A stretch of 64,000 nt of DNA from Amphiscolops sp. MND2022. Its lineage: Eukaryota. Position 1 is the stretch's first letter. Each line of letters begins with the position of its first letter. The stretch covers positions 10,106,001 to 10,170,000 of the forward strand of contig OZ076417.1 in the NCBI GenBank assembly GCA_964187785.1, given 5' to 3'. Under the pieces are notes generated by a model. The model saw nothing but the letters and a program-made list of their open reading frames with translations. It ran no database searches and was not told the DNA's origin. Both the position numbers and the translations under genes were made by a program. Positions 14,303 to 53,614 of the stretch are shown here, in pieces.

Positions 14303-14349
14303 TTTCAGAGAAAATTAAAAACGGAGGAAAGTTGACCTCTCTATTTGCC

Positions 14350-17050: not shown

Positions 17051-17339
17051 AATTTCATACCTGTTATGATTAATAACATACCATTACTTGTTCTTGAAAT
17101 TTTTGGCATGAATCATACATCTCGTTTCTATGTAACATATATAACCAATTTTATAAATTTTACTTCTCACTATAGTCTGTACCTTTTTCTTTCAAGTCGT
17201 TTTTGTTGATCATTTTGTCCCATATCATATACATTTCGGTACAGATTATAAAATTGCTTTCTTTTTATAACCCTTTCATCACTCTAGTTAAATAGTTGGT
17301 ATAGTACACAATATTACACAATTTCTCTTACAATATACA

Positions 17340-18720: not shown

Positions 18721-18739
18721 TCACAAATAATGAACGGAC

Positions 18740-21330
18740 TAACATTACAGAACATACAATGCCAAATACAAAACACCCTTTCTTTATTACAGTTGATGAT
18801 TCCTAAATTGGGCTAGGCGCCGTTCTTTTCCAACTTAATGAGGACAACAAAAGGAAAATTATATCGTATAACTCCCGTATACTCAATTCTCAAGAAAAAA
18901 AGTTTTCTACACTAGATCGTGAACGACTTGGTATAGTACATGCACTACAAATCTACAAGTTCCTTATCATAGGATCTCCACATCCACTTCACAAATTCAC
19001 AGATCACAAACCTCTTTTGCACTATTTTACAAAAAAGGGAAATCTTAATCCACGCTTTTACCGTGCTCAAATACAACTCACAAAGTTTCCAAAACTCAAA
19101 ATTTTCCATATTCCTGGCAAAAATCTGTCTGTTGCAGACATGCTTATTCGTTCTTTTACAAAACCTGAATTTCAACTGAATTATCTTAAACATAAACAAC
19201 TTCCACAACAAATAGATTTTGCTATATTACAAAATAATACATTGACATCTGTCCATTACTTAATACAACACGAAGAAATACTACCACACCAGAAACATGA
19301 CTCACATCCTATCCTCGCTGATTATGGAACAGATCAATTTTCAATTCGTATCAATGCTAAAGGTAACGACATAATTGTCAAACCCTTAGAATCATTTTCT
19401 TTTTAACCTTTCACTCCTTTTCAAAACAAGTGTGAAACACCCGTTAAGAAACGTAACAAAACTTTACACCAGCAATCTTTACTTCTTAATGACACTGATG
19501 TTACTAGTGATGATGATGATCATATTTATACTCGGATTCCAAAACCTATTACGTTTCCATCCACTGATCAACTAAATCACACTGATCCTAAACCCACTTG
19601 ACCAACTTTAAAAACTTGTTCTACACTCAAAAATCCAAAACATTTTTCTCACTCTACTTCTGTAGTTGATATAACAGCCCCTATTAAACTTTCTACACAA
19701 AACTCTCAAGTCATACCCTTTTATGATCCTTCTTTCTTCAAGTAAAAGAAATATTTTCAGGGTTTTTTCTTACCAGATGATTTCTCCTTAGACTTGATTA
19801 CACTACAACAACAACAAACTCAAGATCCTGTTTTGAAGACTGTATATCACTGGAAACGCCAAAATTCTAAGTCTGATTTTACTACACCTTTGATACATGG
19901 TTGTTCTTTTTTATACGAATAATATAAAATCTTCTCTCAACTTCTTATTTATGATGGTACCAATCTAATCAGTTTATACAACAAAAACAAATTCGCTGCT
20001 GATACAAAACCTAACATCACTCCATCCTTGATTTACAGTGATATAAGAATTTATCTACCTTTTAGAATTTTTAAAACAGTTTTCATCATCAAACTACACG
20101 CTCATAGTCATACTGGAACTAAAAATACTTACACTATATTTTCACAGTACTGCTACATCCCATTTCTCGAAAAATGGGTTTTTATTTCCATACATGACTG
20201 TCTTGAATGTCAACGCAACAAACACTTCAATATGAAAATCAAAACAGCCCCTCTTCACTCCTTTTCAGAACATGCTCCATCTTTTAACTATCGTGTATCG
20301 ATGGACACTAAAGGTCCTATGAATCGACTTTCTCAAAGCAAATCTTATATACACGTCATTGTCGACGCTTTGAGCCATTTTTTTGTTACAGTACCAATAA
20401 AGTCTAACAATGCCAAAACAACAGCGAAAACTCACAGCGAAACAAAGTCATTGGATTGTCATATTTGGCCCTCCAATCTATCTTGTTACTGATCGCGGAT
20501 CAGAGTCCATTGATTCAATACAAAGAGTACATCTTTGTACTCTTATGGGTATTAGACATTCTCCTGGAACGCCTCACTTTCCTTGGACTGATGGACTCTT
20601 CGTTGAAGTACAAAATAGAAATCTTGGTACACATACTCGTGTACTTACAAAACACTCCCCTCCCAAGGATTGGGCACACCAAATTAAAATGTACGCTTTT
20701 GCACATAATTCACAACCCCTTTAAGCAATGAACGTTTCACCTCATGAATTAGTTTTTCATATACGACCTCGAATCCCTTTAACATTCGATTTAAATTTTA
20801 TTCGAAATAAAAAAAATACTTGTATATCACATTATTGCTCTCAATCACCTATGACAAAACTTATCTAAACCCTTTTTTCTTAAAAACTTTTTCAAAACCT
20901 CTTCCACGATGGTTCCTTGCGGTTCAAACTGCTATGTTACAAATTTATTATATAGTATTTGATTATACTTTAAAGAAAAATAATTCACAAGCATATATTA
21001 CTAAAACGTATCACGAAGGTAAACCTCTTCCACTTGGAACATTTGTTTTGAAACGTAATTTCACCCAGGTTCATTTTTAAACAAACCTAAACCTCTTCGT
21101 ATTGGTCCATTAAAAATACTTGACCGACTCTCTGATGTAACCTATGATCTTTTATGACAAGATTACTACGTTTCACACTCATCGAAAGCACTTGATAACC
21201 TATATTCCAAAAGAACCACATTTATAACCTCATCTTCGTAATGTAATGCGCTTCTCAGACTCTCTTAAGTCAGACATCCCAAAACCCAATGAATACGCTA
21301 ATAGTGATTCCTCTCCATTTAATTCTGACA
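18740..21330 (+). pseudogene. pol: pol 3' part of copy B: RNase H and integrase
   Basis: RNase H: PFFITVD..GLGAVLFQ, FTDHKPL, HIPGKNLSVADML. Integrase zinc motif LHAHSHTG...HDCLECQ. Core motifs SMDTKGP, IVDAL, LVTDRGSE, VEVQNRNL. Confidence 0.9.
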
Positions 21331-21583
21331 CTCCATTATCGGAAGTTGAATCTTGTAAAACCATTTATCCAGCTAATCCCGATACTTCTTCAACTTTTAA
21401 CTGACACTTCATCCTATAGGACAATTATGAAAACTCATGGCACTGTTCCTTTTATAGTTACATATATAGATTTCAATAGAGATCCTACTGTTCCAGACTT
21501 GAAATATGACAAAAGTTTGTTCTACAATCAATACTCGGGCCTCAAATACACTACATCCTTTTAAACACATCTATTCACATCAT

Positions 21584-22204
21584 ATGAACAACCTATATTT
21601 TTCTCTTTTCTATAATACGATATTACTTTCATCTTCTATACCTATCGAACTAACAGATACAGACAATTATCGTCCTCCAGATGACCCTAACATTACAAAC
21701 CTTATGATTTCCCATTATGATTGTGAAAATCAACATAATCTAAGACAATTCAATTGTTAAATGTGAAAAAAAAGCACTGAAGCTCCTTCAAACATACAAC
21801 ACGCAAAAGTTCAAACCCGAGTTTACGTTCGCGCTAAAGCTAAACGAGTTAAAGCATTCAATTGTGAAGCTTATGCAAAGAAAGAACGCAAAATATGTTA
21901 CCAAGACTCAGTGGAATATCGAAGTGTTGATAGAACCGTTTGGAATCACAATACAATACCTCTTCTTGTAACTCTAGACCTTATAAGACCTTAATGGTAC
22001 AACTAACAAAATATAGAACAACTTCAAATACAATCGTACTCTTACAATTCTAGAAGACCATTAATTTCAAGAAAAATTTGAACATTTTCAAACCCTCTTT
22101 TACAGTTTACAAATTTAATACATTGCATTTTGGTACTGTTACCTATATGCCTGCAGATAAAAAATGGATATATGACCCTCTGAAAAAATTTATACATAAC
22201 TATC
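21584..22204 (+). pseudogene. env: env 5' part of copy B (signal peptide, HYDC), cut by the Polinton
   Basis: MNNLYFSLFYNTILLSSSIPIELTDTD...MISHYDCENQHNLRQF; aligns to 53660-54230. Confidence 0.85.
22199..22204. repeat. Left 6-bp target-site duplication ACTATC of the Polinton
   Basis: Identical hexamer at 35959-35964. 6-bp TSDs are the established Polinton norm. Confidence 0.95.
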
Positions 22205-22307
22205 AGTAGTAGGGAAAGGGGGGGGTTTAGAGCCAATCATGAATCCTTGAGATGCGCTTAGAGCCATTTATGAATCCTTGATCTGTTAGAGCCAATTATG
22301 AATCCTT
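22205..22307 (+). repeat. Left TIR, with iterated TAGAGCCAATYATGAATCC units
   Basis: Reverse complement of 35857-35958 with about 7 differences. Units start at 22228, 22259 and 22287; a fourth at 22315 and a degenerate fifth at ~22370 lie beyond the TIR. Confidence 0.93.
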
Positions 22308-22763
22308 GATATGCTAGAGCCAATTATGAATCCTTGATATTCTTTCATGCATTTCTCATCGGTGAACTTTAAAGCCATTCGTGAATCCTAATCTTTCAAA
22401 CATTGAGAATTTATTGTTTGATGTTTTGACAAATCAGATACAAAATGTCAGTTGTTCAAACTAGATAAAATTTTCTTTCTTGTTTCAATATTCCGTTCTC
22501 AATCTTAATATACCATGATTTGAAACTTCTTATATAACCCAACTATTGAACAAAACTGAACAACCTTTCATAATATCATACCAATTTGAACATTGAATAA
22601 CCGAAATTATCTCGACTTTTAGCTGAAAATTATCAAACAAAAATTTTTTTGTTGAAACGTATTCGGAAATCACCATTTTTCTAGCTGTTTTTGTCGTTCA
22701 AAAATGGTCATGAAATCTTCTCCAAACGTAACATGTATATAATGATTCCATGAAGCTTGAAAA

Positions 22764-25700
22764 ATGGTGATTTTCGAAAACAGGATGCATCGTTGCGAAG
22801 ATTGCTGTAAACTTTTTGCCTCGAAAAAAACCCTATATCAACATATTCGGAGTCAACATAAAAAAGAACCAGTTCTTTCCCTCCCAAAGTTTAAATGCGG
22901 CCACTGTGGTACAGAATTCATTTCCACGTCCAATTTACTTCGCCACTTGAGGAACGTTCACAAACTAACTGGCAATTTGAAATGTGTTTGCTGTACGAGT
23001 ATTTTCGGAAATCGAGTAACACTTGATAACCATATGAGCAATTCCCATTCGTACAAGTCAGGTAGCAATATCACTGAAAGATCTGAATTTGGCGAGGCAG
23101 CAAGAACATCTGGCTTCAAAACAGCTCTCAATTCGGCTTTCACAATTTATCGCTTGGAGTTGGAATCAACAGTGGTGGAACCCTTTCAATATTTAGTATC
23201 CAACAACAAACAAATCCTATCATTCATCAACAACAAATTACCAATCAATGGGTCAAGCAGAGTTGGCCTTACTATTCACGTTCGACTGTTGAAACCGTTG
23301 GAGGGAGAGACAGTGATAGCGTATTTCCATACAAAAATGGAACGATTGGGACATGAACTGCAGGATGATGACTTTAACAATTTTGTCGATCAACTAATCT
23401 CTCAAATGAATGTTTATTGCTCTGGAGGATCAGGTTGGGTTGTGGACACGCTGCTTGCCGTTGAAGTCAAAGTCGCCGCTCCCGTGAGACAATCAGGCTC
23501 ATCCTTCATTCCAACGCCTGCCACATTGAGTGGGCTCTCAAGAAGTATTCTGAATGTTAGAAACAAAAGTGATGACTTATGTTTTCTGTACTGCGTTTTG
23601 GCGGCATTGTATCCTCAGAAGAAACACTGTGATCGACCTTCTTCTTATATGCATTTGCTCGAAAGATTGGACTTCAAAATCCAAGATTTTCCAATGTGTC
23701 TCAGTAAAATACGCTTTTTTGAGAGACGGAATAATGTTTCCATTACAGTTTACCGCTTCGAAAATGAAAATCTCTACAATGTTTATCATTCCAAAAACAG
23801 AGCAAGTCGAAAGAAAATCAAGTTACTGTTGCTGATGGAGGGCACAAAAAGTCACTATTGTCTCATCAAAAACTTCTCGAATGTTATGCATAGGCTGCAC
23901 CGGTCATCCAAGAAGCGATTTAAAGGTCCCAAGAGCAAGTTTTGCGGCAATTGTTTTCAACCGATTGTGCGAAAAAACTATCAAAAACATTTGGAGTTTT
24001 GTGAAGAGCACAAGCCTGTGGAAATACAAATGCCCGAAGATGGGAAGACTATATCTTTCAGCAATTGGCAGAAAACGCAATGGTGCCCTTTCGTTGTGTA
24101 TGCTGATTTGGAAGCAATTGATGTTAAATGTGATGAAATTGGCGCATCAACATCGAACACCACCGAAATTGAAAGGCAATATCCAGCCAGTTTTGGCGCT
24201 GTTCTTTTCGACCAGAGAACAAATAGTATCGTGGATGAAGCATTCTACAGAGGAGAAGATTGTATTGAAAAATTGATGGAAACTTTGAGGGGTTGGTTGA
24301 CCAAGGCCTACGTGGAAAAACAAAAGTATCGGTTTTTAAATATATCCAAACTAGAACGGGAGCAGTTGATGACAGATGCCGCTACTGCTTGTTGCATTTG
24401 TGGCAATAACTTTGCAGACCCTCGCAAAGTGATTCATCACTGCCATCTAACAGGTCATATCTTCGGCGTTGCACATCCCGAATGTAATTTGAAAGCACGG
24501 TCAGTTTCTTTTCTTCCGGTGTTCTTTCATAATCATTCTCGTTACGATGCACATCACATCATCAAACATTTGAGCCTCAAAGCAAATGAGACTTTGTCGG
24601 CCATTTCTAGAACCGATGAAGTCTACATCTCTTTCAGTGTTTCCATCCCTGTCGGATCATACACAACAAAAAAAGGCAAAATTGTGAAAATTTCGAATGC
24701 ATTGCGATTCTTGGACAGTTTCCAGTTCATGACTCAAAGCTTGGACTCTCTTGCAAAAACCTTGAAGAAGGAGGACTTTGCGCTTCTCAAAGAACATTTT
24801 TCTTCAGTCTATCCCCAACTGGATTGGACGCTCTTTTCTGAAAAAGGTTTTTTCCCGTACAGTTATCTCGATTCTTTCGAAAAGTTCAATCAACCTCTAC
24901 CGGGTTATGGCGATGATTGGAAAAACACTTTGACTGGTAAAATTGATGTCACAGAAGATCAGTATAAAAAAGCTCTTAATCTCTACAACTTGTTGCAATG
25001 CAAATCCCTGGGCGACTATCACGACGTATACCTAAAAATCGATGTACTTGTTTTAGCAGATGTCTTCCAACTTTTCAGGAGAGTGTGCATGAAAGTTTAC
25101 TCTTTGGACCCTGCTCATTTTTTCTCGGCACCGAATTTGAGCTGGGAAGCAATGCTTATTACAACCAAAGCAACCCTGGGTCTGTTAACAGATATCGATA
25201 TGCTCTTGTTTTGCGAGAGAGGCATCCGTGGAGGCATCAACGGCATTGGTGAGCTTCGCCATTTTGTAGCCAACAATAAAGACCTCAATGACTTTGACGC
25301 GGAAAAACCTTCAGTTTACGGAGCGTTTTTTGACGTGACTTCCCTTTATGCAGGGACCATGCAGCAAATGCTTCCTCTCGATTCTTACACGTGGAATGAT
25401 AAAATTACTCTTGTTGAGGTACTCAACACTAGTGACGATTCTGATTTTGGATATTTTGTTGAGGTTGATCTCGAGTATCCTGCGGAGCTGCTTGATCTAC
25501 ACAATGATCTGCCGCTTGCACCAGAGAAACTTTCCATAAAACAATCATGGTTATCTCCGTTTGCAAAGAGCTTTGGAGTGAAACTTTGTTCGGATGCGCC
25601 GAAAAAGTTGATAGAGACGCTTTTCGATAAACATAATTATGTCTGTCACTACAGAAACTTGAAATTCTACCTGAAGCATGGTCTCAAAGTGAAACGATTG

Positions 25701-26591
25701 CACCGTGTATTGCAGTTTAGACAAAGCAAGTGGCTTGGGGATTACATATCCAAAAATACTGTAATGAGGAAACAAGCTGGTAATGATTTTGAAAAAAATT
25801 TCTACAAACTCATGAGTAATGCTTGCTTTGGTAAAACTATGGAAAATTTGCGCAACCGCCGGGAAATACTTTTTGTCAGTAGTAAGGAGCAAGCTGAAAA
25901 GCACTTACAAAAACCCAATTTTAAAGGCTTTCAGATCATCCACGACAATTTAGTGTCAGTCACCTTTTCTCCCAACAAAATTTCTTGGAGTAAGCCAACT
26001 CCGGTCGGTGCTTCAATACTTGACCTTTCAAACCTCTGCCTCTACCGCTTCCACTACGACGAGATGAAACCTCGATATGGTAACCGTTTGAAAGTGTGTT
26101 ATAAAGACACTGATTCGCTACTATATCGCATGGAAACAAAAGACTTATACGAGGAAATGCAAGGCTTTAAACACCTCCTGGATTTATCTGATTACCCCGA
26201 GTCTCATTTTCTTCATGACAAATCCAACAAGAAAGTTCCCCTAACAATGACTGATGAACTTCAAGGGAGGGTTCTCAATGAAATTGTGTGTTTACGATCC
26301 AAGCTGTAGAGCATTCAGTTTGAAGGGGGTGTGAAGCAGAGTGCGAAAGGAGTTCAGAAAAGTGTCAAAAAGACTCTGCATCATGACCTTTTCAAATCAT
26401 GTCTGTTCGATCATCAATCTGTCAGAAGATCAATGACACAATTGCGTTCTATCAACCATCAAATTGTTGTCAACCGGGTAAACAAAATTGCTCTGAGTTC
26501 TTACGACGACAAACGATACTTACTGGATGATGGCGTGCAATCACTTGCTTATGGACATTATTCACTTGAAAAGAACAACAAACATGGTTAG
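22764..26591 (+). pseudogene. polB: Protein-primed family B DNA polymerase (~1275 codons) with one in-frame TAG at 26307-26309; N-terminal C2H2 fingers, vOTU-like region and EndoVII-like insert
   Basis: Motifs VYADLEA (ExoI), FDVTSLYA (A), KLMSNACFGK (B), YKDTDSL (C). ORFs 22764-26309 and 26331-26591 are in the same frame, reading LRSKL*SI where Y is expected at the stop. Confidence 0.95.
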
Positions 26592-26657
26592 TCTGACATC
26601 GAAACGATTACTTTCTTTTTGGAATTGAAAATATTGTTCTAGTCGTTTTGTTTTCAG

Positions 26658-27180
26658 CACTTTGGGATTCAATGGAATTAGACAATGTACAAAGTGCGCC
26701 CTGTTCGCCCGTTTCCTTGTCCTCGAGTGATTCTGATGAGGACAATAGTGATTCGTCCGCTTCGGCTTCTCCTTTACCAAGTGCCGAGTCATATAACAAG
26801 CTCAACCAAACACCAATTCTACTGCCACTTTTGGAATCCAGCCCATTCAGTAATAACACTTCTTTTTAATAATAGGTTTAAAATTTTCCTAATTCATTTT
26901 TGACTACGGGTTTGCTTCAGGTCCTCCTGATCCTGGTTTCCACCAGCAATCACAAACAGAAACTGACGATGAGCAATATTGCATAGATTGGGACGAGTAT
27001 GATGAAATTGTTTCCAATCAAGAGAGGAATCAACCAAATCTCCCGAAATGTCCGTACATTGATGACAAAGCTCTCGAAGCTAGCGATGACAGTGACGTTG
27101 CTAAATGTACTAGCAAAAAAATACGCTCAGGACGTCGTCTTGTGTCCTACAGTGACAGCGAAGACTCTATTGATGATTGA
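26658..27180 (+). CDS. Predicted two-exon acidic Ser/Asp-rich coding unit (26658-26849, 26921-27180), spliceable in frame onto pPolB or translated from ATG 26672
   Basis: Candidate GT-AG introns at 26587-26657 and 26850-26920, each 71 nt with a pyrimidine-rich acceptor. Phases join to one open frame ending ...SYSDSEDSIDD* at 27180. Confidence 0.55.
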
Positions 27181-27300
27181 GTTGAATAACAAAAATACAT
27201 CTCTTCCTATTTTTCTCAAACTCAGTTGAAGACGACGCATAATCTGATCAGATCGAAGTATCGTGTATAAAAAAGATTTGCTCAGAAAATTTATTTGCAT

Positions 27301-27831
27301 TCAAAAGATAGTATATCGGAATAGTGTATTGTATTTATCATTCATGAAACGAATAATTTCAATTTCACTATATAATTTAAATTTTTCATGGAGTTGAGAC
27401 ATTTCGTGGGGCATTTTTGCTATGTAGTGAATCAAAAAGAGACAATAGAGGCCACACATATTGGAGCTGGCATTTTGTAGAGTGAGTGAAATTTGCCGAA
27501 AACCGGTTTTTCCATATAATTGATTCAAGCGATTAAAAAAAGTTGTGTAGAGAGATACTGGTTGTCCCAAACAGTCCCAGACGAAAACTTGTAGTTGCTT
27601 TTGTCCCTGCTCAATAGTAGCGCCCAGAAGCAACCAGTGCGATCCATGTGATTTTTCAGGGGAAGTGTTTACAATTTGAAACCAAACCAATCTGTCAATC
27701 GCAGGAAAGTTTGTGGGCATTTGAGTAGTTACTGGTTGCTTGCTGAAATTGTCTGCAGACCAGATTCCTGCGAAGGCTACCGCCAAGTAGGAATTTTGAA
27801 GAATCATGTGTTGTAGAGTCGCACTATCCAT
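27301..27831 (-). CDS. Adenain-type (C5) cysteine protease, 176 aa, intact
   Basis: NTSPEKSHGSHW (His), WDCLG (Asp), QNASSNMCGLYC (Gln/Cys). Confidence 0.92.
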   Translation of the reverse strand: MDSATLQHMILQNSYLAVAFAGIWSADNFSKQPVTTQMPTNFPAIDRLVWFQIVNTSPEKSHGSHWLLLGATIEQGQKQLQVFVWDCLGQPVSLYTTFFNRLNQLYGKTGFRQISLTLQNASSNMCGLYCLFLIHYIAKMPHEMSQLHEKFKLYSEIEIIRFMNDKYNTLFRYTIF

Positions 27832-29172
27832 CGTAACGTCTGTTTTTCTTTATGTTTCTTGCCGAATCTATGGTAACTTGACTGAACCGCTCACCAATTA
27901 AAAATAACTCGATAGCATCGTCGAGAGCCTTTTAAAAATACAACTTTAAGGTTAGGCTGGAGCCGGTAAGTTCGGGAAAGAGTGTGAAATTTTTGCTGGC
28001 CTCCTCTGTTGAAGTCAAATCAAAGACAAGAAAAAAATGATTGTCTTCATAATCTTCTAGCTTGATTCCGTTGCTTTTTTCCTTGAAGCCAAGTGCTGTT
28101 ATGGTATTGTAATATAACCTCACATTGTTTGTTGTGTCTAGGGGAGTTCCCGCTAGCGGTACCCCGTTGCCTCGCTGAATTTCTACCCGCTGCAAGTTGA
28201 ACTTTTGATAGGAGAATGGTGTTTCATTGAGTGGCGTACTCCGGAACAGAGAATTTTTTTACCATACATAATGTTAGACGCCGAATGGGCTCTGTGCCAA
28301 AAATATTCTCCTTTATGAAACAATTTTGTCCAGCTTGAATGATGAAACTTTTGTTTAAACTCTCAATGTAGGGATAAACCGCGTCACTTTTCAGTAAAGC
28401 CCTCTCGATTGACAATTTCACGCTGTCAGTCACGACCACTTTTCGAACAAAGAGAGAGGCTTTTTCAACAACTGGAAGTATTTTACCATCAAGATTCTTG
28501 GCTTCGTCATCAGTGCCTTTTAGATGCAGAAGAGTGTTGTTGGGTGATCGATACAGACGCACGTGAAGAGTTACATTTGGAAGTAGAAATTTCTCACAGT
28601 CCAAAAAGTCAATGTGGAGAGCACCGCAGAGCTGAATTCTGCATTCCTTTTTTTCTGCAAAGCTGGCAGCAAGCTTGTTAAAGAGTCGATCTTTTCCAGT
28701 CGACTTTGGCAAATAGTTGTATCCTTGGCATTCGGCCCATGAGTTTTTGCTTTCCGTGTCAGTTGAAAGTTCAGTCTCTACAAAATCGGAATGCAAGTAA
28801 CAATTATTGCTGTGAGAAATCAATTTTTCATTCAGATATAGTTCCGCATGTGAGAAAAGTGTGTGAAGTGTGTTGTTGGAGAAAACAACTTCAAAATCAC
28901 CAGGTTTCGCTCTTGTCTTTCCATCTTCATGATAAAGTGCTACTTCAACACACAGTACAATGCGATTCAAGTCAATAAGGTTTTTCGCTTCCGCAGCTAC
29001 GAAAAAGTCCAACTGTGGTCCACGACAACCCACGTGTGGGAAAACTTCTTGGTCGTAGGCGCCTTCATAATTGATCATAACTCCTGGTTTCTCGAAAAAG
29101 TCCAACGCACTGTGTGTCACGGGCCTTACAATCTCGGTTGCTCTGCCGACAAATAAATTGTTGACGGATGCC
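27824..29172 (-). pseudogene. Double jelly-roll major capsid protein: frameshift near 28250, premature TAA at 27932-27934, no ATG in the expected position
   Basis: N-terminal ALDFFEKP...LDF...IDL..I.L pattern and C-terminal FFLVFDLT pattern as in Polinton MCPs. The frame continues F*KALDDAIELFLIGE...RRYDG* to 27824. Located between the protease and core/penton genes. Confidence 0.85.
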
Positions 29173-29186
29173 AGCTTGCTGTGTTT

Positions 29187-29711
29187 TTAATTGGAATATT
29201 GAATTTCAGACAAAATGTGGGACCGACTTCTTTTGGCGGCTGTTTTTCTCGAAATGCTTGTCGAACTGTTTCGTTTTCTTTTGGCCAATCCTGCCAATGG
29301 CCGAACGCCGCTGTCATTCGCCTTCCGCCGCGCCGCCCCCGTGTTCCGCTCGTCGTCGCCGCCGCCGCCGCCGCCCGGGCGAAAGGCTACTCCTGCCGGT
29401 ATGTTTTTAGTCATTGTTTTCGCAGCAGTCTTTTTCGCGACACTTGCTAAAAGTTTTCGATTGGGCTTTTTTTTGCCTGCCAAGACATCTCCAATTTCGG
29501 GAATGGCAGTCTCAAGCAAGTTTTTGCCAACTTGTCTCGCAACAGGCAAAACGTATTTTCTTACTAGGGGAATGGCTACACGACCCATACGAACGGCAAA
29601 AGCTCCGAGTCCACCTCCAGATCCCATCTGTCTGGCTGGTCCACTGTAATTGGTGTGAGCGACAGATTTGATTTGTGAATCGTAATGAGCATCCATTGTA
29701 TAATTGTACAA
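29187..29711 (-). CDS. Basic, Gly-rich putative core or membrane-lytic virion protein, 174 aa
   Basis: RQMGSGGGLGAF followed by an amphipathic basic helix (VRKYVLPVARQVGKNLL) and a K/R-rich C-terminus. Sits between the capsid genes. Confidence 0.7.
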   Translation of the reverse strand: MYNYTMDAHYDSQIKSVAHTNYSGPARQMGSGGGLGAFAVRMGRVAIPLVRKYVLPVARQVGKNLLETAIPEIGDVLAGKKKPNRKLLASVAKKTAAKTMTKNIPAGVAFRPGGGGGGDDERNTGAARRKANDSGVRPLAGLAKRKRNSSTSISRKTAAKRSRSHILSEIQYSN

Positions 29712-29764
29712 TTTTCAAACTGACCAACTGATCCTTCCAAAAGTTGAACAATGAATGATGTTGT

Positions 29765-30775
29765 TCAATTTCGCGGTGCTGGTCGGAAAGCCAAAGTAAT
29801 GTTGGTGCGGCCGCAGCTCAAAAAGGGCATCTTTTGACCCATCTCATTGGCAAGAGTTAGACTAATGGACTGGAATTGGGGTTTCACGATCCGCTTCCAC
29901 TGTAAATTTGTGAAACTTTTGTGGTTCACCTCGCCCATAGTGTGCGCCAGAGTCATACTCTTCAGGGGAATGGATCTCAAGAGTGCCGTCTGCGTGTCGC
30001 CCAGCATCTCATTTTGTACAAGATCACAATAGAGAAACATTGTGTGACTACCTGCATTCAAATCGACGGGCCACTGCCCGATTTGTTTCACAACATTGGC
30101 AGTACCTGAAGCTAGTTGGTCAGGTGCTTCAGTTTCGTCACGACGCTGCTGTGATTGGCAATCAATGATTACATCGGTACCCAAAATGTTTTTCAAATCT
30201 TCTGATACTACCGTAATTTTTAGTCCCTCATTTCCCACAATGCAGTTCGACTTGACGTGCAACCTTCTAGTCACACCATCAATTTTCCAAGACAACATGG
30301 AATCATTGGACCGATCGTTTTCCATCAGTTTGCTCTCTTTCTTGCCCATAGCAGCTTTCGTGATGGCTTTCATTATTGAATCCACCGATGGATAACAACC
30401 AGGCTTGAGACGAAGCGTTACAGGTGAACTGTATTTTGGTAATTGAATAAATCCAGAGGGGACTGTCATCGAAATCAAACCTGGTTTGTGATGCCTGGAA
30501 TTTTTTTCTTTGGGCGAAGCCGGTAGTTGTTTCGAGACTGTGAACTGTCCGAGAGTCACGTTTTGCACCATTGCCGGCCATGCAATTTCAACGAGTGCCA
30601 CTTGCCAATCACCAGGCAAGGATATTGTTGTTGGCAACAGCGTCGTGAAGTTTGACAATGTGTTTGCGGGAAAAGTAGCCATGGATGCATTCGATATAAG
30701 GTTCATTGTGAATTCTTGACCATCGCTGCTTGATATGTCCATGTCGCCTACTGTAACGTTAGATTGGTACAACAA
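29765..30775 (-). CDS. Minor capsid protein (penton, single jelly roll), up to 336 aa
   Basis: FTMNLISNASMATFPANTLSNFTTLLP..ISLPGDWQVALVEIAWP and MFLYCDLV..EMLGDTQTALLRSIP match the Polinton penton pattern. Confidence 0.88.
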   Translation of the reverse strand: MLYQSNVTVGDMDISSSDGQEFTMNLISNASMATFPANTLSNFTTLLPTTISLPGDWQVALVEIAWPAMVQNVTLGQFTVSKQLPASPKEKNSRHHKPGLISMTVPSGFIQLPKYSSPVTLRLKPGCYPSVDSIMKAITKAAMGKKESKLMENDRSNDSMLSWKIDGVTRRLHVKSNCIVGNEGLKITVVSEDLKNILGTDVIIDCQSQQRRDETEAPDQLASGTANVVKQIGQWPVDLNAGSHTMFLYCDLVQNEMLGDTQTALLRSIPLKSMTLAHTMGEVNHKSFTNLQWKRIVKPQFQSISLTLANEMGQKMPFLSCGRTNITLAFRPAPRN

Positions 30776-31916
30776 ACTTCACCAGTTCGGGTTCGTAAAA
30801 CTTGCCCTGAATAATTTCGTTATTGCTATCTTTGACAGTGTAGGTTGGAGGATTGATAGTAGGTATCGATGTCACAGTGAACAATTCTTCAGTAAATTGG
30901 ATTTTGTAGCCCCGATGAAAGGTATCAATTTTGCGTCGAATTCGAACTTGATCACCAATTTTGAATTTTGGTTTCTGCGGATCATTGGTATGACAAAGCG
31001 ATACTAAATATGGTACATCTTTTTTTGAAACTGAAATTGGAGCCAACTTTGTCATGCGATTCACGCGGCGATTAATGATTGATACAACTTGGTCGAGATG
31101 GTCAATGTAAGTGTTACTGTCATGTTCATGCATGTACTTGAAGATCAGTGATTTGAGAGATCGAATATTTCTTTCCGCCAATGCAGACTTTGTTTCGCTT
31201 TTCGTGGAATAAATGTCGATACCTTTTGACCGACAAAATGTGGCAAAGTCTCCTGCAAACTCGCGCCCCTTGTCGACCCAAATCTTTTCCGGTTGGTGCG
31301 TTGCACTGCAAATCTTTGGCAATGGTGGCTTTCCGTTTTTGACAATTATCTTCTTTAGAGCTTCCTTACAAGCTTGTGACGTTTTTACTTTGAGAGGCTC
31401 TACCCAGAGATAACGGCTTAAAACGTCTACCGCTACAAATAGATATCTGATTCCATTATTGGTTGCTGCAAGTTTCTGCATGTCGGACAAATCTATCGAC
31501 CAAATTTCATTTAGCCTGTAACTGACAACTTTCAGTCGCACGAAACGTTTCCTAGTGAGTTTGAATTTCGTGTAGGTTTCGCTCGAATTGAGGTATCTAT
31601 CTACATGCGCTGATGGACATTGAGATGCAGCTATCAAGTTGCGTCGGCTTCCAAAAGCCGCTTTGCTCCGCGGATTCGTGTAACTTTCGTGAATTTTTGG
31701 GAACGAAGTAGCATAATTTCGGTCAATATCGTCATTCAGTAGAATTCTACTTGCATTACATTTGGAGCAGAGAAAGTTGTCGTTGTACTCCTTGCTACTT
31801 TTGAGACCGCTGCATCTAAAATGCACCCAACCGCAGATATGACACCAAAGTGAGGGACGTGTTTTGGATCCTTTACCCAGAGAAGCTTGACACGATCCAC
31901 AAAACCAACTTTTCAT
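30759..31916 (-). CDS. int: Retroviral-like DDE integrase with N-terminal PHD-type zinc finger, 385 aa, intact
   Basis: WSIDL (D), AVDVLSRY, IWVDKGREF (D), AERNIRSLK (E), KFKIGDQVRI. N-terminus CGSC...CHIC.WVHFRC...CSKC. Confidence 0.93.
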   Translation of the reverse strand: MKSWFCGSCQASLGKGSKTRPSLWCHICGWVHFRCSGLKSSKEYNDNFLCSKCNASRILLNDDIDRNYATSFPKIHESYTNPRSKAAFGSRRNLIAASQCPSAHVDRYLNSSETYTKFKLTRKRFVRLKVVSYRLNEIWSIDLSDMQKLAATNNGIRYLFVAVDVLSRYLWVEPLKVKTSQACKEALKKIIVKNGKPPLPKICSATHQPEKIWVDKGREFAGDFATFCRSKGIDIYSTKSETKSALAERNIRSLKSLIFKYMHEHDSNTYIDHLDQVVSIINRRVNRMTKLAPISVSKKDVPYLVSLCHTNDPQKPKFKIGDQVRIRRKIDTFHRGYKIQFTEELFTVTSIPTINPPTYTVKDSNNEIIQGKFYEPELVKFVVPI

Positions 31917-31917
31917 T

Positions 31918-32613
31918 CTAAAAATTTGTCAACCACTGACTGCTGCTACCCTGTTGTGTGTCGAGTTTTAGTTTTTTGTATGGAGACAGTCCGCTCGCTG
32001 AGCGAATGTGATGCTGATTCTGACTGCTAGTCTGCCTTGCGTAGGTGTTCGCCAGTAAAAACTGAGGAAGTCTGAGAACTTCAACAAGGGTAAGGAATTT
32101 CTTTGGCAGTTGTTTCGTATTGACTTGCAGTGCTGTGAGAAACTCAACAACACTGACTCCAGTATCTTGCTGATCTAAGTTTATAGTTTGATTTGTTTCG
32201 TCTATCGTAGTTCGATCACAATCTTCAATCTTTTTTAAAATTTGTCTCGATCTTTCAACTTTCCCTCCTGTTACGCCAGATTCTAAAAGATTTGACAAGA
32301 CTTGATCAGATGAGTTTTTGTAAGACTGTTTCGTTTCTGTATTGTTCGAACTGCCCAAGTCCTCCGATTGGTACCGCGAGTTCAAGTTCAATTGAGCGAC
32401 TAAAGTATCTTCGGGCAATTCTTTTGCCGTATTGAACGTTTTGAAGTGTTCTTCTTCAACGGGTTCAACTTTGCTTTCAGTAACTTCAAACTTTGAGAGT
32501 AATTGCTGTTTTTGTTTCTCACGTGCGTCCGGTGTTTTCTCTTGTCTTTTAAGAGAAATATACTCTTCATGAGTGATCAAAATTAGGTCACGCAAGCTAC
32601 TGTTCGATACCAT
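31918..32613 (-). CDS. Polinton hypothetical protein, 231 aa
   Basis: Intact ORF tightly packed between the integrase and the 114-aa ORF. Confidence 0.75.
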   Translation of the reverse strand: MVSNSSLRDLILITHEEYISLKRQEKTPDAREKQKQQLLSKFEVTESKVEPVEEEHFKTFNTAKELPEDTLVAQLNLNSRYQSEDLGSSNNTETKQSYKNSSDQVLSNLLESGVTGGKVERSRQILKKIEDCDRTTIDETNQTINLDQQDTGVSVVEFLTALQVNTKQLPKKFLTLVEVLRLPQFLLANTYARQTSSQNQHHIRSASGLSPYKKLKLDTQQGSSSQWLTNF

Positions 32614-32941
32614 GGCAATATTCCAAATGATTCAGTACGGATGGCAGAACCAATTTCAATAAACGCAAACCCCTCTCTGAGCCCAACACTTGGCGTTTTC
32701 TTTTCAAGGCAACTCGCCGTTTCGAACAAATTTTCTCTAGATTCGTTTTCTCACGTGCAAGGAGCGCCGCTTTTTGTTGCAACCTCTTGTCTAGCTTGAC
32801 TTTCCCTTTTACAACGTTGAAAACACAGTCACAGAAAAACTTCATTATGTCATCTGGACAATGCAAAATGAAAAATCTTCTCAATGTTGGTGAAAATTTC
32901 AGATATAAATCAACTGTATAGTAATTTTGTAAATTCATCAT
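32597..32941 (-). CDS. Small basic Polinton protein, 114 aa
   Basis: FFCDCVFNVVKGKVKL resembles the CECALNxLxGNVxL motif of a small Maverick protein. K/R-rich. Overlaps both neighbours. Confidence 0.75.
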   Translation of the reverse strand: MMNLQNYYTVDLYLKFSPTLRRFFILHCPDDIMKFFCDCVFNVVKGKVKLDKRLQQKAALLAREKTNLEKICSKRRVALKRKRQVLGSERGLRLLKLVLPSVLNHLEYCHGIEQ

Positions 32942-33611
32942 GGATGGGGATGAAAAGTTCTTCTCTCGCGCAATAGAAGTGGGCTGGTTCGTCGCCAGAG
33001 CAATGGGAGCTATATCGCAGGTTCCTACTGCTCCTCACATCCAAATCGATCAATAAATGACCGAAGGCTTCCTGAGTCGCTCTTTTATAGACTTTCAATA
33101 GAGTGGAACGCTCGCCCAGTTGACGTCCCAAAATCCCAATTTGTTCAGAATCCCTTGGACTATTGAAGAGAACAATTTGAGTCACATTCAAATCAATCGT
33201 TTTTGAGTATTTTGACTGTTGGAATAGGTTGTGCCGCAGCACCATCAAATGAATGTTTCGGTGACGACCAGCGATGACCAAGTCCAAAAATTCTTTGCTG
33301 TTAGCAGCTTCGTCATACAAATCATCTAGAACAACGAGAGTTCGTTGCTTCAAGATTTCCCCTCGCTCGACCGCATTCCACTCCAGGCCTTGAATGAGTT
33401 CCAAATGGATGTTCTTTACCAGGCATTCTGCTTCAAGCTTTTTATATGCTTGTTGATAGTGTTTATAAAAGTAGAGTATTTTGTCGAAAACAGGGCGAAA
33501 CATTTTTTCTTGGTTGCAAATCATTCTCCCAATCAATTGTGTTTTTCCTGAACCAGCTGGTCCCACCACAGAAATGAAGCAATGAGGAGACGTACTGATT
33601 CGCTTATTCAT
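32910..33611 (-). CDS. FtsK/HerA (A32-like) genome-packaging ATPase, 233 aa from ATG 33611
   Basis: Walker A GPAGSGKT, Walker B LVVLDD, arginine-finger region AGRHRNI..VLRHNLFQ. Confidence 0.93.
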   Translation of the reverse strand: MNKRISTSPHCFISVVGPAGSGKTQLIGRMICNQEKMFRPVFDKILYFYKHYQQAYKKLEAECLVKNIHLELIQGLEWNAVERGEILKQRTLVVLDDLYDEAANSKEFLDLVIAGRHRNIHLMVLRHNLFQQSKYSKTIDLNVTQIVLFNSPRDSEQIGILGRQLGERSTLLKVYKRATQEAFGHLLIDLDVRSSRNLRYSSHCSGDEPAHFYCAREELFIPIHDEFTKLLYS

Positions 33612-33961
33612 GATTTTGGGCCTGGTAAGATATGACCGATACAAGCTGAAAGAATCGCTAAAATCCCGCTAGAAACTTTGTTGTCGTTTTCACAAAGAGT
33701 TAGGAAAAGAATACAGAACGTGAAAACTGCGATGAGTATGAAGTAATGTAAAAATACCAAAACCAGAGACCTCTCCACTCGGGAATCACAACAGCAAAAA
33801 CTATAGGGTGGTCTCTCGTTGTCTGTTTCATCAAATAGGATTCTTTCAAAGTTCGGAATTGATAAATTTCCTTGGTCGACTTGATCCTCCTGATCGCCTC
33901 GATTGTTTATCGTCAAACTGCTGCAATAGCCACTTGTATGGCTCAAATCAGGGCTGCTCAT
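33608..33961 (-). CDS. Small two-TM membrane protein, 117 aa from ATG 33961
   Basis: CCC motif followed by two hydrophobic stretches (LVLVFLHYFILIAVFTFCILFLTL; GILAILSACIGHIL). Its TGA overlaps the ATPase ATG (ATGA). Confidence 0.7.
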   Translation of the reverse strand: MSSPDLSHTSGYCSSLTINNRGDQEDQVDQGNLSIPNFERILFDETDNERPPYSFCCCDSRVERSLVLVFLHYFILIAVFTFCILFLTLCENDNKVSSGILAILSACIGHILPGPKS

Positions 33962-34044
33962 AACCTCGTGAATGTTTGAAATTATCAGGTTTCTGAACGT
34001 CAGAATGCAACTGAACAGAACAAAATTCAAAGTACAAATGAATG

Positions 34045-34455
34045 TCAAAAAGGAAATGCATCGAAATGCTCTCTATGGAACAGTTTGACAAATATCCAAT
34101 ATGATATTCCGGAGAAATGTCCAAGTAGCATGTTGTTACGGAAAGACTGAGCCTTGGTTACAGTGTACACGTATCCGGGTCCGACATCTTCAAAGCTGCG
34201 CATGTATCCATATGCATCATGGAAAATTGCATGCAGTCTCAAAATTTTGGAACAATTCAGGTAATTGTCCAGCTTACTATCGCCTGGCCCTATTTTGCCA
34301 CCAAATGGTGCTTTAGCGTTTACTTCCTTCAAGTCAACATTCTCGTCTATATAACGACAAACTGCTAAGAAGGCATTTTTAGTGGTACTGTTTTTAGGAA
34401 AGCAGTAGTTAACTGAAACAAAATTTTCACAAATTTGTCTGGCTGAAAACATCAC
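34045..34455 (-). CDS. Phospholipase A2-like protein (parvoviral/adintoviral PLA2X type), ~136 aa
   Basis: KIGPGDSKLD (Ca-loop-like GPG) and HAIFHDAYGY (catalytic HD..Y). Confidence 0.7.
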   Translation of the reverse strand: MMFSARQICENFVSVNYCFPKNSTTKNAFLAVCRYIDENVDLKEVNAKAPFGGKIGPGDSKLDNYLNCSKILRLHAIFHDAYGYMRSFEDVGPGYVYTVTKAQSFRNNMLLGHFSGISYWIFVKLFHREHFDAFPF

Positions 34456-34509
34456 GAATGTTCTAAAAATTTAAATTAGGAGTAATCCGACTGTTTCCAA
34501 AATGTGTTT

Positions 34510-35343
34510 TTACAGAAATGAAGTATCGATTATAGTGTCTTCATTATAAGGGGAAAACAGTTGAGGGCTCGAAGTCGTGTTGTCGATCTCTTCATCCAGT
34601 TGCAGTGGTTGGTTCATACATTCGAAGCACATGCATTGAGCATTTGAGTGTCCCAAGTCGATATCCAAAGTTCTACTGTGCTCCGTTACAAAAAGTCGTC
34701 CGATACCGCGTTGTAGAAGTTCAATATAGGGTATTACTGTATCCTTGAAAGGCGCATCGCTCTTTTCTAGTTCCACTAGCTTTCGGAACACGTATAGAGC
34801 CTTTTCCTTATCGGTGCAGTCACCCAAGGAATTGTGTCTATCCAGTTCCCAAACGCTGTTGAATTTGCATCCCAAACTCTCAGTCGTTTTCCGATTCAGC
34901 ATGCTTTTCATTCTCTCGCCTTCTATAACGAACGATCTGTTACTAAAACTTGACATCTCGGTTCTCAGAAAGTTTTCAGGGTAGGAAACTGTGAGAAGTC
35001 GAACTTTTGCCCATTGCAAATTGGACAAAACTTTTGGAATAGTTTGTTTCAAAAATGTTTCAGCGTTAGTGCACTGTGGTAGGTACAGCAGAAGATGATA
35101 ATGATTGGGAGGCAACGCTTGACAAAACTCATCGAGCGATCCATTACTGGGAGCATCTTGTTCGTGTACTTTTCCAATAAATTGACATTTGTGGGAATTA
35201 GAGAGTATTTCCAATAATTTGGAGAGACTTGTTGGTAATTCTAAGGTGTCTTTCTCGTAGACATTACTGTAGGCTTCGGATTCTTCAGTTGAGTACAAAA
35301 GCAGCCAAAAGTTACACGGTATTTCGCGAAACACTGATGTCAT
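34510..35343 (-). CDS. Hypothetical protein, 277 aa, with HUH-like motif
   Basis: Intact ORF, first gene from the right TIR. VHEQD...PPNHYHLLLY; C-terminal CMCFEC. Confidence 0.75.
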   Translation of the reverse strand: MTSVFREIPCNFWLLLYSTEESEAYSNVYEKDTLELPTSLSKLLEILSNSHKCQFIGKVHEQDAPSNGSLDEFCQALPPNHYHLLLYLPQCTNAETFLKQTIPKVLSNLQWAKVRLLTVSYPENFLRTEMSSFSNRSFVIEGERMKSMLNRKTTESLGCKFNSVWELDRHNSLGDCTDKEKALYVFRKLVELEKSDAPFKDTVIPYIELLQRGIGRLFVTEHSRTLDIDLGHSNAQCMCFECMNQPLQLDEEIDNTTSSPQLFSPYNEDTIIDTSFL

Positions 35344-35856
35344 ATCGGTCGTCAGGAAAAAAGAATGGCAACTGCTTCAGAGAAAGTTTAAATTATAATG
35401 ACGATTTCTCTTGTCACAAATATAATCAATGATAATCATGGAAGATTCCTTTGGGAGTCGCCAAAAGAATTTTCCATGCATAAAAGAGTTTATAGTCGTA
35501 AATGCTGCCGATCCTGTTTTGTTTTAGTTTCGGGAATCAAAACTCTTCTAAATTTATCAATTTCTTTTTCTTGGAATTACCTTTATCACCAGTGCTCCTG
35601 CTACCAGAGGACAAAAGGTTAGACGTTTCTGATTGAATATTTTGCTGAGGAGAAGTACATGAAAAGAACTTGTTTTACCGATTCGATTTTCATATACAAA
35701 TTGTTTGCTTTGATTGAAAGTTTGTTATCAGTTTGCCTATGTAAAGAATTGTGAAAATGAACTGTAACCTCTCTAATGTTGAATATTAGGACCCTGATTG
35801 TAGATTAGGAGCTCTAGGACACCGATAGCTGTTGAGAATTTGCATGTTTTAAGATT

Positions 35857-35958
35857 AGGGATTCATAATTGGCTCTAACAGTTCAGGGATTCATAATTGG
35901 CTCTAAGCGCATCTAAAGGATTCATGATTGGCTCTAAACCCCCCCTTTCCTTACTACT
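35857..35958 (-). repeat. Right TIR of the Polinton
   Basis: Ends ...ctaaaccccccctttccttactact; contains three repeat units. Confidence 0.93.
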
Positions 35959-35964
35959 ACTATC
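35959..35964. repeat. Right TSD ACTATC
   Basis: Matches 22199-22204. Confidence 0.95.
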
Positions 35965-38010
35965 CATCACATCAACAATTTGACGTGAATTTATTCAGTT
36001 GGCGACTCTGAGATTATAATTTTAATAACTTATATAACTTAGATACAGAAAACTTTATGGTTATAGACGGACATACAATACCATGCTATTTTGCTGACGG
36101 TTTTTGCAAACCAACCACTAAGATCCCGTTCACACTAGTTTGGTTCAGTGACGATTTCTGCTTCATTTTCACACTACAAGACTTTGTTGGTAGAATGACA
36201 AAAATTGATAACTGATATTGGATCCAAACTGATTCTTTTATTCACTCTCTACTTCAATCATCACAAAACCCACATAAAATCAGTCGTTCACGTTTCGTAA
36301 ACTTTTTCCACATACGCAAACATTCTGTGGCAAACCTGAAGCTCTCTGTTCTATACAAGATTCAGATCTTTTTGTTACATACAAAGAAGGTTTCAATATG
36401 CAAACAGGCAGCAAAATCCTCAATCTATGATAAACGAATATATCTCAGGGAAAATGGTATTAGGCACTACAAAACGACATTATGTTTTTCCAGCATGAAA
36501 TCAATAACAACTTCGCTACCATTGACTATGATGCACATGAAAACACTAAAAAAGACTAAACAATTAACCACGGATTTCGTTCCATGACTGTACAAGAACT
36601 TGAAATTTTTCATACCATATGTGAATTAGAACGCAATCAACTTCTTACAATACTTGCAATGTCTGTTCAAAACCCTCAGCTTGCGGGATTCCTTCTAACT
36701 GGAACTCGAAGCAATTTCCTTTATGTCGAAGGTTTCCCGGCTTGATTAATGACTATCAACTCTTTCTATCACCTTTATACAAAGGTTGTCGTTGCTTTGA
36801 CAGAAGATCTTTCATTACAAAGATATGTTCATGTATGTAAACCTTATAACAAGACAAAGTTTTGACTTTTCTACTCCTATACCTTGCGAAGCTATTCCTC
36901 GGAATATAATAGTTGTTGATCCTGGTGCAAACAATGAAGATTTCTCTATCCTTCGCCCAGAACCTATGAAACGAAAACCTCCTCTTATAATTACTCCTAC
37001 TCACTTAAAATCTAAAAGACGTCCTAACAACTTTACAGCCCTAGACGCTGGTATATATTCTAATGCAGAACTCGATCAATTCCGGTACAGAATACTCTAT
37101 CGAAACCATTCTGACACAACCCTTCCACTACTCGGAAAAGCTCTTGGTTATTCATTCATGTCTGCTATTACTGTAGACTACTATGATTCACACATTTCCC
37201 AGCCTAACCCCTATATAACACTTCTTATTGGACTACATGATAAACTTCTAAACCTCACTCCCATTTTTACACCTACATGGTTTGCTGATGCCTTCATTGC
37301 ATTGTTTGGTTACCCATGTTACATCCTTACACAATGTGGAATATATTTTTCTACTACACTCCTTTTCATACAAGCACTTTTAACACTTTTTATCAAAGGT
37401 TACAAAACAATCATTATCAAACAAAACCTTCAACAAAACATCACTATTGTTAATTCTATTGCACATGGTTTTTTCAACATTCTTGCAGCTGAAATGGTCA
37501 ATGGAGGACGCTCCTGCAAAAAAACGAGCTTTAATTTCGAATAAAACTTCTTCCGAAATTTCTTTGTCAACCATTATTGAAAACCCATTGAACGATTCTT
37601 CCGCTAGTTTAGATTACCCATTAGATAATCTAACTTTATCTCAAACTCCAACTAACGAGTCGCATAAATCAAATGGGACTACATCTCCACCACCGTTTTA
37701 CACTAAACGCCCTGTACGTAAACTGCCAAAAATATCAAGACTTAAATTTCTTCCTAAACAAAAACCCTACAATACTATTACTATTGACAACTCAAAACCA
37801 TTAGCATCATCTATGTCACCACCTTCATTACCCCATTACTCAACAGTCAATCAAAAACCTGACACCCATCCATTGAACTCTACAACACTTGACAACCATG
37901 ACAACAACTCCTGTCAAATTTTTTCTTCAACTTCTTCAACATCCTACCAGGTGACTACCACTCTCTTGTTTTCACTCGAAAAATCTACAGAACTCTCTAC
38001 TCTTCTCTGA
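35965..38010 (+). pseudogene. env: env 3' part of copy B (ectodomain, TM, long S/T/P-rich tail)
   Basis: ICELERNQLL (36617-), QNPQLAGFLLTG, RQSFDFSTPIPC. TM FGYPCYILTQCGIYFSTTLLFIQALLTLF. Aligns to 54230-56250. Confidence 0.85.
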
Positions 38011-38199
38011 CTTAAATAACTCTAAAGAACTCTCTAAACTTACAGAACTCTTCGATATATCTCTACCTCTGAATTATAGCTCTTCAATGAATATCAACAG
38101 AGTTGATCTTCGAATAGACATTTCTATTACTTGTTTGAATCAACCAACTGTCAAAATTCGCATTTTGTCCCTAGCTACTCCTGCAAAACAAAATAAAGC

Positions 38200-53608: not shown

Positions 53609-53614
53609 CACAAC

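What the first reader, a model, noticed from the sequence alone, without database searches (positions are those of the whole stretch)
22205..35958. Nearly intact Polinton/adintovirus-like element with a complete virion module
Seen: both TIRs, a 6-bp TSD, pPolB on + from the left end, and ten tightly packed genes on - from the right end (protease, MCP, core, penton, INT, two unknowns, ATPase, TM protein, PLA2-like), plus an HUH-like ORF. Visible lesions are few: one stop in pPolB, and a frameshift, a stop and a lost ATG in MCP. The host retroelement is far more decayed. Inference: a comparatively recent insertion, so functional siblings able to make particles may exist.
Basis: partly seen in the sequence, partly recalled or inferred. 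Interest (0 to 1): 0.7.

Follow-up and report, generated by a model that had tools for sequence, protein, structure and literature searches.

The report
Young Polinton with intron-split polymerase
This is a recently inserted, now broken copy of a virus-like jumping element (a Polinton) from a large young family, and its DNA polymerase gene carries two conserved stretches that are likely host-type introns and would add an acidic tail, although the core genes of such elements are usually described as intron-free.

Summary
Observation confirmed: 13,754-nt Polinton, ~101-nt TIRs, TSD ACTATC, pPolB plus eleven minus-strand genes, inserted in an old Gypsy element. This copy is dead (pPolB stop; three MCP lesions) but young: nearest sibling 99.5% identical. 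The genome holds at least 40 related copies and about 10 families. In the window's family 0 of 13 copies have all frames open; in the sister family 7 of 25 do. All eleven genes show purifying selection (MCP dN/dS 0.04). Two phase-1 GT-AG introns (26587-26657, 26850-26920) lead into an acidic, PDPG-motif tail. The last acceptor lies at one fixed site in 10 of 10 families, and 19 of 66 database tail hits are continuous with pPolB. Six families have a third intron. (2) The element is a chimera: polymerase and TIRs from one lineage, capsid and integrase genes from another. Splicing is not shown in RNA; particles are not shown. Module swaps are published. I found no published intron-split Polinton pPolB, but this scan has noted such genes in other genomes.

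The parts
22199..22204 (.). Left 6-bp target-site duplication (ACTATC)
22205..22305 (+). Left TIR (AGTAGT start, G run, 28-31-nt subrepeats continuing to about 22397)
22785..26586 (+). pPolB exon 1 (C2H2 fingers, PF03175 polymerase); private stop at 26307-26309; an in-frame ATG also at 22764
26587..26657 (+). Predicted phase-1 GT-AG intron, 71 nt; the apparent pPolB stop lies inside its donor
26658..26849 (+). Predicted pPolB tail exon, 192 nt, Ser/Asp/Glu-rich
26850..26920 (+). Predicted phase-1 GT-AG intron, 71 nt; acceptor 5 nt before PDPG in 10 of 10 families
26921..27180 (+). Predicted last pPolB exon, 85 codons: PDPG, DWD and CP[FY]I..[EK]A.E motifs, basic end
27301..27831 (-). Adenovirus-type cysteine protease, 176 aa
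   Evidence: PF00770
27824..29174 (-). Major capsid protein gene, broken (no start ATG, frameshift, premature stop)
29187..29696 (-). Basic core-like protein, 169 aa (label from position and composition; no library hit)
29765..30742 (-). Penton/minor capsid candidate, 325 aa (label from position and recalled motifs; no library hit)
30759..31916 (-). rve integrase, 385 aa, with N-terminal Cys/His finger
   Evidence: PF00665
31918..32613 (-). Unknown protein, 231 aa, dN/dS 0.11
32597..32941 (-). Unknown basic protein, 114 aa, dN/dS 0.18
32910..33611 (-). A32-like packaging ATPase, 233 aa
   Evidence: PF04665
33608..33961 (-). Small hydrophobic (predicted membrane) protein, 117 aa
34045..34452 (-). 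PLA2-like protein, 135 aa (GPG and HDxxY motifs recalled from parvoviral PLA2; no library hit), dN/dS 0.05
34510..35343 (-). 277-aa protein; N-terminal ~155 aa predicted HUH/origin-binding fold, invariant H60, H81, H83
35859..35958 (-). Right TIR
35959..35964 (.). Right 6-bp target-site duplication

Best explanation
The element is a young, full-length but mutationally dead copy of a Polinton (animal adintovirus type) whose family likely copies itself with a protein-primed polymerase, integrates with its rve integrase and likely has a capsid stage, and whose polymerase gene is predicted to be spliced by the host over two short introns to gain an acidic tail with a basic end. Shown: ends, TSD, gene set, copy number, youth, purifying selection, fixed splice-like sites across 10 families, tail continuous with pPolB in database relatives, and discordant trees (polymerase and TIRs from the H/I/J lineage, capsid, ATPase and integrase from the B/C lineage). 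Inferred: transcription from the integrated copy in the nucleus, splicing, nuclear targeting or host-protein binding by the tail, protein-primed replication, packaging, and origin of the chimera by recombination near 27270 between co-resident families.
For: Anatomy: (perfect 6-bp TSD in 30 of 40 copies). Youth. Selection: dN/dS 0.04-0.22 in 11 of 11 minus-strand genes, family A versus B. Introns: YAG exactly 5 nt before the xDPG codon in 10 of 10 families against a background of 0.030 per position, with different encoded residues; blind two-intron search picked that acceptor in 10 of 11 solved rows, window copy reached by 4 of 200 shuffles; splice sites kept in 11-12 of 13 and 23-25 of 25 copies; the third intron adds 62-88 nt at one phase-1 site to an otherwise exact 54-nt spacing. 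Tail: 19 of 66 profile hits run from the pPolB end motif into the tail without a stop, some on contigs of 45-437 kb; also P0009, P0018, P0019. Chimera: pPolB 82-86% to H/I/J but 64-67% to B/C/E/G; MCP 93-95% to B/C but 65-66% to H/I.
Against: No RNA evidence for splicing or expression. The blind search chose a different first intron in 3 of 11 rows (one family C, two family E), failed on one decayed B copy (35 of 200 shuffles), found no solution for the J copy, and did not score F and K (read by eye). 81 of 88 scored pPolB homologues end within 30 residues of the GH motif, so a tail-less polymerase is the common form and the unspliced message would give one. Families are related, so the 10 of 10 is not ten independent events. 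Particles are not shown, and the MCP model is weak (pLDDT 44). Trees are quick ones (IQ-TREE short search, FastTree), with no one-clade test.
Confidence: 0.82

Rival explanations
1. The introns are real but act as a switch: the unspliced message ends at the stop inside the first donor and gives a normal tail-less polymerase, while the spliced message gives a tailed form, or the tail exons are mostly joined to a short 5' exon to make a small regulator.
For: The donor puts an in-frame stop within two codons in families A, B, C, D, H, I, J; most Polinton polymerases end there. An earlier scan note (e1-9367535, other genome, not tested here) reports a message that splices out most of pPolB.
Against: The same GTTAGT donor occurs at the other two introns too, so the stop may be a by-product; relatives with an uninterrupted tail cannot switch this way.
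Confidence: 0.3
2. The family is now a capsid-free transposon or spreads in trans: virion genes are relics, and family A was mobilised by the proteins of a sister family.
For: 0 of 13 family A copies have all frames open and only 1 of 13 an open pPolB exon 1; no relative in IMG/VR contigs.
Against: MCP dN/dS 0.04, penton 0.22, protease 0.19 between A and B; A's lesions are not family-wide and its TIRs are its own, as expected of copies that decayed after insertion.
Confidence: 0.2
3. The 26600-27180 region is a separate small gene or decayed spacer, not part of pPolB.
For: 47 of 66 tail hits in the library are short ORFs without polymerase sequence.
Against: Several short hits that were read begin with intron-like residues in front of PDPG (P0227, P0262, P0268); no conserved ATG precedes the exons; 19 hits and P0009/P0018/P0019 carry the tail on pPolB itself.
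Confidence: 0.08
4. The window's lesions are assembly errors and this very copy is intact.
For: The MCP frameshift lies at an A run.
Against: Three of the four lesions are substitutions, in line with 26 private substitutions; 6 of 9 private changes in right-half genes are non-synonymous, as under neutral decay.
Confidence: 0.04

Closest known systems
Polintons/Mavericks of animals (vertebrate set, PMC8097293, passages read)
   Same: TIRs, 6-bp TSD, pPolB, integrase, ATPase, protease, major and minor capsid genes, most copies decayed and a minority intact.
   Different: That paper reports no introns in intact elements; here pPolB has two predicted introns in all 10 families and a third in six.
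Alpha adintoviruses (PMC8502044, passages and section 3.2 read; Eupolintoviridae per PMC12166617 passage)
   Same: PF03175-type PolB, hexon/penton, adenain, PLA2-like accessory gene typical of Alpha virion modules.
   Different: PLA2-like ORF is short (135 aa) with no obvious pX tail; extra HUH/origin-binding-fold ORF; the one 'intron' hit in that paper concerns group II maturases.
Nematode Polintons with swapped pPolB (10.1101/2023.08.22.554363, passages) and replication/morphogenesis mosaicism (10.64898/2026.10.13.758929, passages)
   Same: pPolB tree disagrees with the trees of the other genes.
   Different: Here swaps are between close polymerase lineages (64-86% aa) co-resident in one genome, at least twice (families A and C), and the TIRs travel with pPolB.
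Intron-bearing elements in print: nematode Maverick cargo genes (10.1101/2022.07.12.499685, passages), introners in dinoflagellate eupolintoviruses (PMC12166617, passages), group I introns in PLVs (PMC12220804, passages)
   Same: Introns inside Polinton-like elements.
   Different: Those are cargo genes, recent introner insertions or self-splicing introns; here the introns are old, position-conserved, sequence-divergent and lie in the core polymerase.
HUH/origin-binding domains (AAV Rep, parvovirus NS1, SV40 large T, papillomavirus E1, pMV158 RepB)
   Same: Predicted fold of residues ~7-155 of the 277-aa ORF; HxH on a central strand.
   Different: No helicase domain; Z only 6.5-7.1 and tied with unrelated folds; catalytic tyrosine not identified.

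Membership tests
Polinton/Maverick | Terminal inverted repeats | tested here: met
   ~101 nt, 94%, AGTAGT...ACTACT
Polinton/Maverick | 6-bp target-site duplication | tested here: met
   ACTATC; perfect TSD in 30 of 40 copies
Polinton/Maverick | Protein-primed family B polymerase | tested here: met
   PF03175 E 1e-22; one private stop
Polinton/Maverick | Retroviral-like integrase | tested here: met
   PF00665 E 2e-10
Polinton/Maverick | Packaging ATPase and adenovirus-like protease | tested here: met
   PF04665 E 7e-7; PF00770 E 2e-4
Polinton/Maverick | Double jelly-roll major capsid protein | tested here: met
   Top 11 rows are viral jelly-roll capsid or scaffold proteins, Z up to 9.4, rmsd 4.2, 190 aligned (Sputnik), from a low-confidence model
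Polinton/Maverick | Single jelly-roll penton | tested here: inconclusive
   No Pfam or PDB sequence hit; not folded; conserved and syntenic
Polinton/Maverick (as described in PMC8097293) | Intronless core ORFs (a described trait, not the defining one) | tested here: not met
   Predicted introns in pPolB; no RNA confirmation
Alpha adintovirus | OTU domain in a PF03175-class PolB | tested here: inconclusive
   PF03175 met; OTU only by recalled Cys and His motifs in the N-terminal half, no library hit
Alpha adintovirus | PLA2X accessory gene | tested here: inconclusive
   Motifs recalled; no Pfam or PDB hit
Polintovirus with an extracellular stage | Virions or extrachromosomal linear DNA | not testable with these tools
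   Only indirect: purifying selection on capsid genes
HUH endonuclease | Rep-type fold with HUH motif | tested here: inconclusive
   AAV5 Rep Z 7.1, rmsd 4.2, 131 aligned, tied with unrelated rows; Rep/NS1 dominate Foldseek lists at E 1e-3 to 0.1; H81, H83 invariant in 24 of 24
HUH endonuclease | Catalytic tyrosine on the motif III helix | tested here: inconclusive
   Y121 (SYPENF) kept in 23 of 24; no residue-level match to a Rep obtained
U2-type spliceosomal intron | GT-AG ends, pyrimidine tract, frame restored, position conserved | tested here: met
U2-type spliceosomal intron | Removed from RNA | not testable with these tools
   No RNA run was available to lay on the element

The most novel reading that the evidence does not exclude
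A lineage of animal Polintons has a spliced polymerase with an undescribed acidic, NLS-like C-terminal module; host splicing switches between a tail-less and a tailed enzyme; introns were gained stepwise and one was lost precisely (an RNA-templated event in a DNA virus); and a helicase-free HUH/origin-binding protein recognises the TIR subrepeats. The sister family with coding-intact young copies would make this a tractable natural system for finding the long-sought animal Polinton virion in a small marine worm.
Probability: 0.25. Interest if true: 0.75.

Novelty: new variant of a known kind. Interest (0 to 1): 0.5.

Why it matters
Animal Polinton virions have not been observed (PMC8097293 abstract). 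A genome with about ten young families, capsid genes under strong selection and coding-intact copies is a good place to look in native tissue. ORF-based surveys would score the intron-bearing families as broken: nearly every copy of the youngest family looks frameshifted in pPolB until the intron is counted, so intact Polintons may be undercounted. The conserved tail is a testable new polymerase module, and the intron presence/absence at one exact site gives a compact case of intron gain or loss in a virus-like element.

Tried and rejected
RNA runs: none was listed for window 26000-35958; no evidence either way. The shared pPolB break in family B was first read as an inherited lesion or programmed frameshift; rejected when one search showed a GT-AG segment whose length equals the surplus over family A. 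TIR divergence as a clock: rejected, because left/right differences are shared by the six A copies compared. One search had a range error and is replaced. Histone stem-loop (lead from e1-8615939): one chance-level match inside pPolB, none at gene ends. ESM Atlas gave no answer. PDB sequence searches: HUH profile gave only FGF1 at E 0.04 or worse (rejected); PLA2-like and penton none. IMG/VR: no relative. P0002, P0013 and P0015 have no close match in this genome (best 76%, 63%, 52%). Host CCT genes show T-rich AG acceptors and GT donors, but the exon ends were too rough for calibration. A direct exon-versus-intron divergence comparison across families, and a scan for a 5' donor that could skip the polymerase, were not run, so both remain open. 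Literature: six searches showed no paper on intron-split Polinton pPolB, on an HUH-fold gene in animal Polintons, or on acoel Polintons in the listings; PMC11426020 and PMC1450207 were not held; Repbase entries, subscription papers and supplements were not seen and may hold such reports.
Full report
OBSERVATION. The element runs from 22205 to 35958 (13,754 nt). Its ends read AGTAGT...ACTACT, the TIRs match at 95 of 101 columns, and ACTATC is duplicated on both sides. GC skew is flat inside and strongly negative outside. pPolB, integrase, ATPase and protease have Pfam support. The open N-terminal piece of the MCP gave a weak model (pLDDT 44), but its top 11 structural matches are viral jelly-roll capsid or scaffold proteins. 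The flanks are collinear with another Gypsy-type copy in the window, and other genomic copies of that host element are at most 81% identical. The host is an animal with a 1.07-Gb assembly; the closest named homologues are from the acoel Convolutriloba macropyga, so an acoel host is an inference.

AGE AND FAMILY. An 801-nt MCP probe gave 40 scored matches of 211 candidates, a lower bound. All 39 siblings were fetched. They form family A (13 copies with the window), B (25) and C (2). A perfect 6-bp TSD was found for 30 of 40. The window copy has 26 private substitutions in 13,086 columns against five siblings. With natural sibling frames as yardsticks (97% cover; MCP measured from its second ATG; tail exons not scored), 0 of 13 A copies have every frame open, and the window copy is among the three least damaged (two genes broken); 7 of 25 B copies have every frame open. 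Between A and B all 11 minus-strand genes have dN/dS of 0.04-0.22. Polymerase searches revealed further families D-K; ten elements were fetched, nine with TIRs and TSD and all with a similar gene order.

INTRONS. Family B's pPolB looked frameshifted in nearly all copies. The cause is a 62-nt GTGAGT...TTTCAG segment that A lacks. Two anchor motifs lie exactly 54 nt apart in A, H, I, J and K, and 62-88 nt further apart in B, C, D, E, F and G, always with a GT donor after the first base of the same codon. At the 3' end, the apparent stop at 26589-26591 lies inside a GTTAGT donor. A 71-nt intron, a 192-nt exon and a second 71-nt intron keep the frame into an 85-codon last exon ending at 27180. In 10 of 10 families a YAG stands exactly 5 nt before the xDPG codon although the overlapping residues differ; the background is 0.030 per position (one extra row there is a spurious pattern hit). 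A blind search for two introns picked this acceptor in 10 of 11 solved rows; the window copy's score was reached by 4 of 200 shuffles. It chose another first intron in three rows, failed on one decayed B copy and the J copy, and did not score F and K. Splice sites are kept in 11-12 of 13 A copies and 23-25 of 25 B copies.

THE TAIL BELONGS TO pPolB. A profile of the last exon found 66 proteins among 1.84 billion. In 19 of them the pPolB end motif runs into the tail with no stop, three clusters on contigs of 45-437 kb. P0009, P0019 and the RefSeq model P0018 show the same, and P0020 reads through an intron-like stretch in front of APDPG. The tail is acidic, has three short conserved motifs and often ends in a basic cluster; a nuclear-import and host-binding role is my inference. 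Most other pPolBs (81 of 88 scored) stop shortly after the GH motif.

CHIMERA. Family A's polymerase groups with H, I and J (82-86% aa; 64-67% to B, C, E, G), and its TIR start resembles theirs. Its MCP, ATPase and integrase group with B and C (MCP 93-95%; 65-66% to H, I). Strong nucleotide similarity to B starts at about 27278, just after the last tail exon. The families with the third intron form one clade (SH-aLRT 95; FastTree 0.988), so one gain is the simplest reading. Database ORFs P0002 and P0003, sister to the A clade, begin at or just after that acceptor position, which would mean an older intron lost precisely in A; their DNA was not seen. Trees are quick ones; rows with less than 55% cover were dropped, and K and B13 were missing from the pPolB tree.

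THE 277-aa ORF. It has 51 homologues, none named, and invariant H60, H81, H83. The model (pLDDT 63) matches Rep/NS1/large T/E1 origin-binding domains over residues ~7-155 with Z 6.5-7.1, tied with unrelated folds. It has no helicase. I read it as a likely DNA-end or origin-binding protein; nicking is undecided.

MECHANISM. From established Polinton biology (recalled, and PMC8097293, PMC8502044 passages): an integrated copy is transcribed, excised or copied out, replicated by protein priming from the TIRs, packaged by the ATPase into a protease-matured capsid and re-integrated with a 6-bp TSD. Here the polymerase message would first need the host spliceosome. This copy cannot supply polymerase or capsid.

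COMPARISON AND NOVELTY. It is a Polinton by every defining feature tested. Replication-module swaps are published (10.1101/2023.08.22.554363; 10.64898/2026.10.13.758929; passages). Core genes are described as intronless in vertebrate and nematode elements (PMC8097293; 10.1101/2022.07.12.499685; passages). PMC11071296 and PMC11296320 (passages) gave nothing on HUH genes or spliced PolB in adintoviruses. Six searches listed no report of an intron-split Polinton pPolB or of this tail; unseen papers and supplements may hold one. This scan has noted intron-split Polinton polymerases in other genomes (unchecked notes), none by sequence similarity to this tail. Interest 0.5.

Noticed in passing
window 17000-22204 and 35959-40000; also about 44000-57000 and 1000-6300: Decayed Gypsy-type retroelements whose env-like gene has a weak match to a Monjiviricetes fusion glycoprotein (PF24664, E 5e-5, below cut-off); the Polinton sits inside this gene.
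   Followed up: partly
window 22205-22305 versus 35859-35958: Left and right TIRs differ at fixed positions in all six family A copies compared, so the two ends keep separate identities through replication; the G run varies in length.
   Followed up: partly
L007:1-10000: A family A copy with a tandem multiplication of a ~1.75-kb block covering the pPolB end, tail exons and protease.
   Followed up: no
L073 and L075 (family C): Second chimera: pPolB 81% to family F but MCP 93-95% to A and B.
   Followed up: partly
L103:280-2085: In family K the core-like and MCP sequences appear as one 601-aa frame; one copy seen, may be a private change.
   Followed up: no
   Followed up: no
L027 left non-coding region: Family B carries about 460 extra bases between TIR and pPolB, with a short internal repeat, absent from A and C.
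   Followed up: no
window 9900-15000: A GC-richer stretch with acidic and Ser/Pro/Thr-rich open frames (9925-10332 +, 13250-13657 -), not identified.
   Followed up: no
window 60987-61514 (-): 175-codon open frame with a signal-peptide-like start and Cys-rich part, possibly a host gene exon.
   Followed up: no
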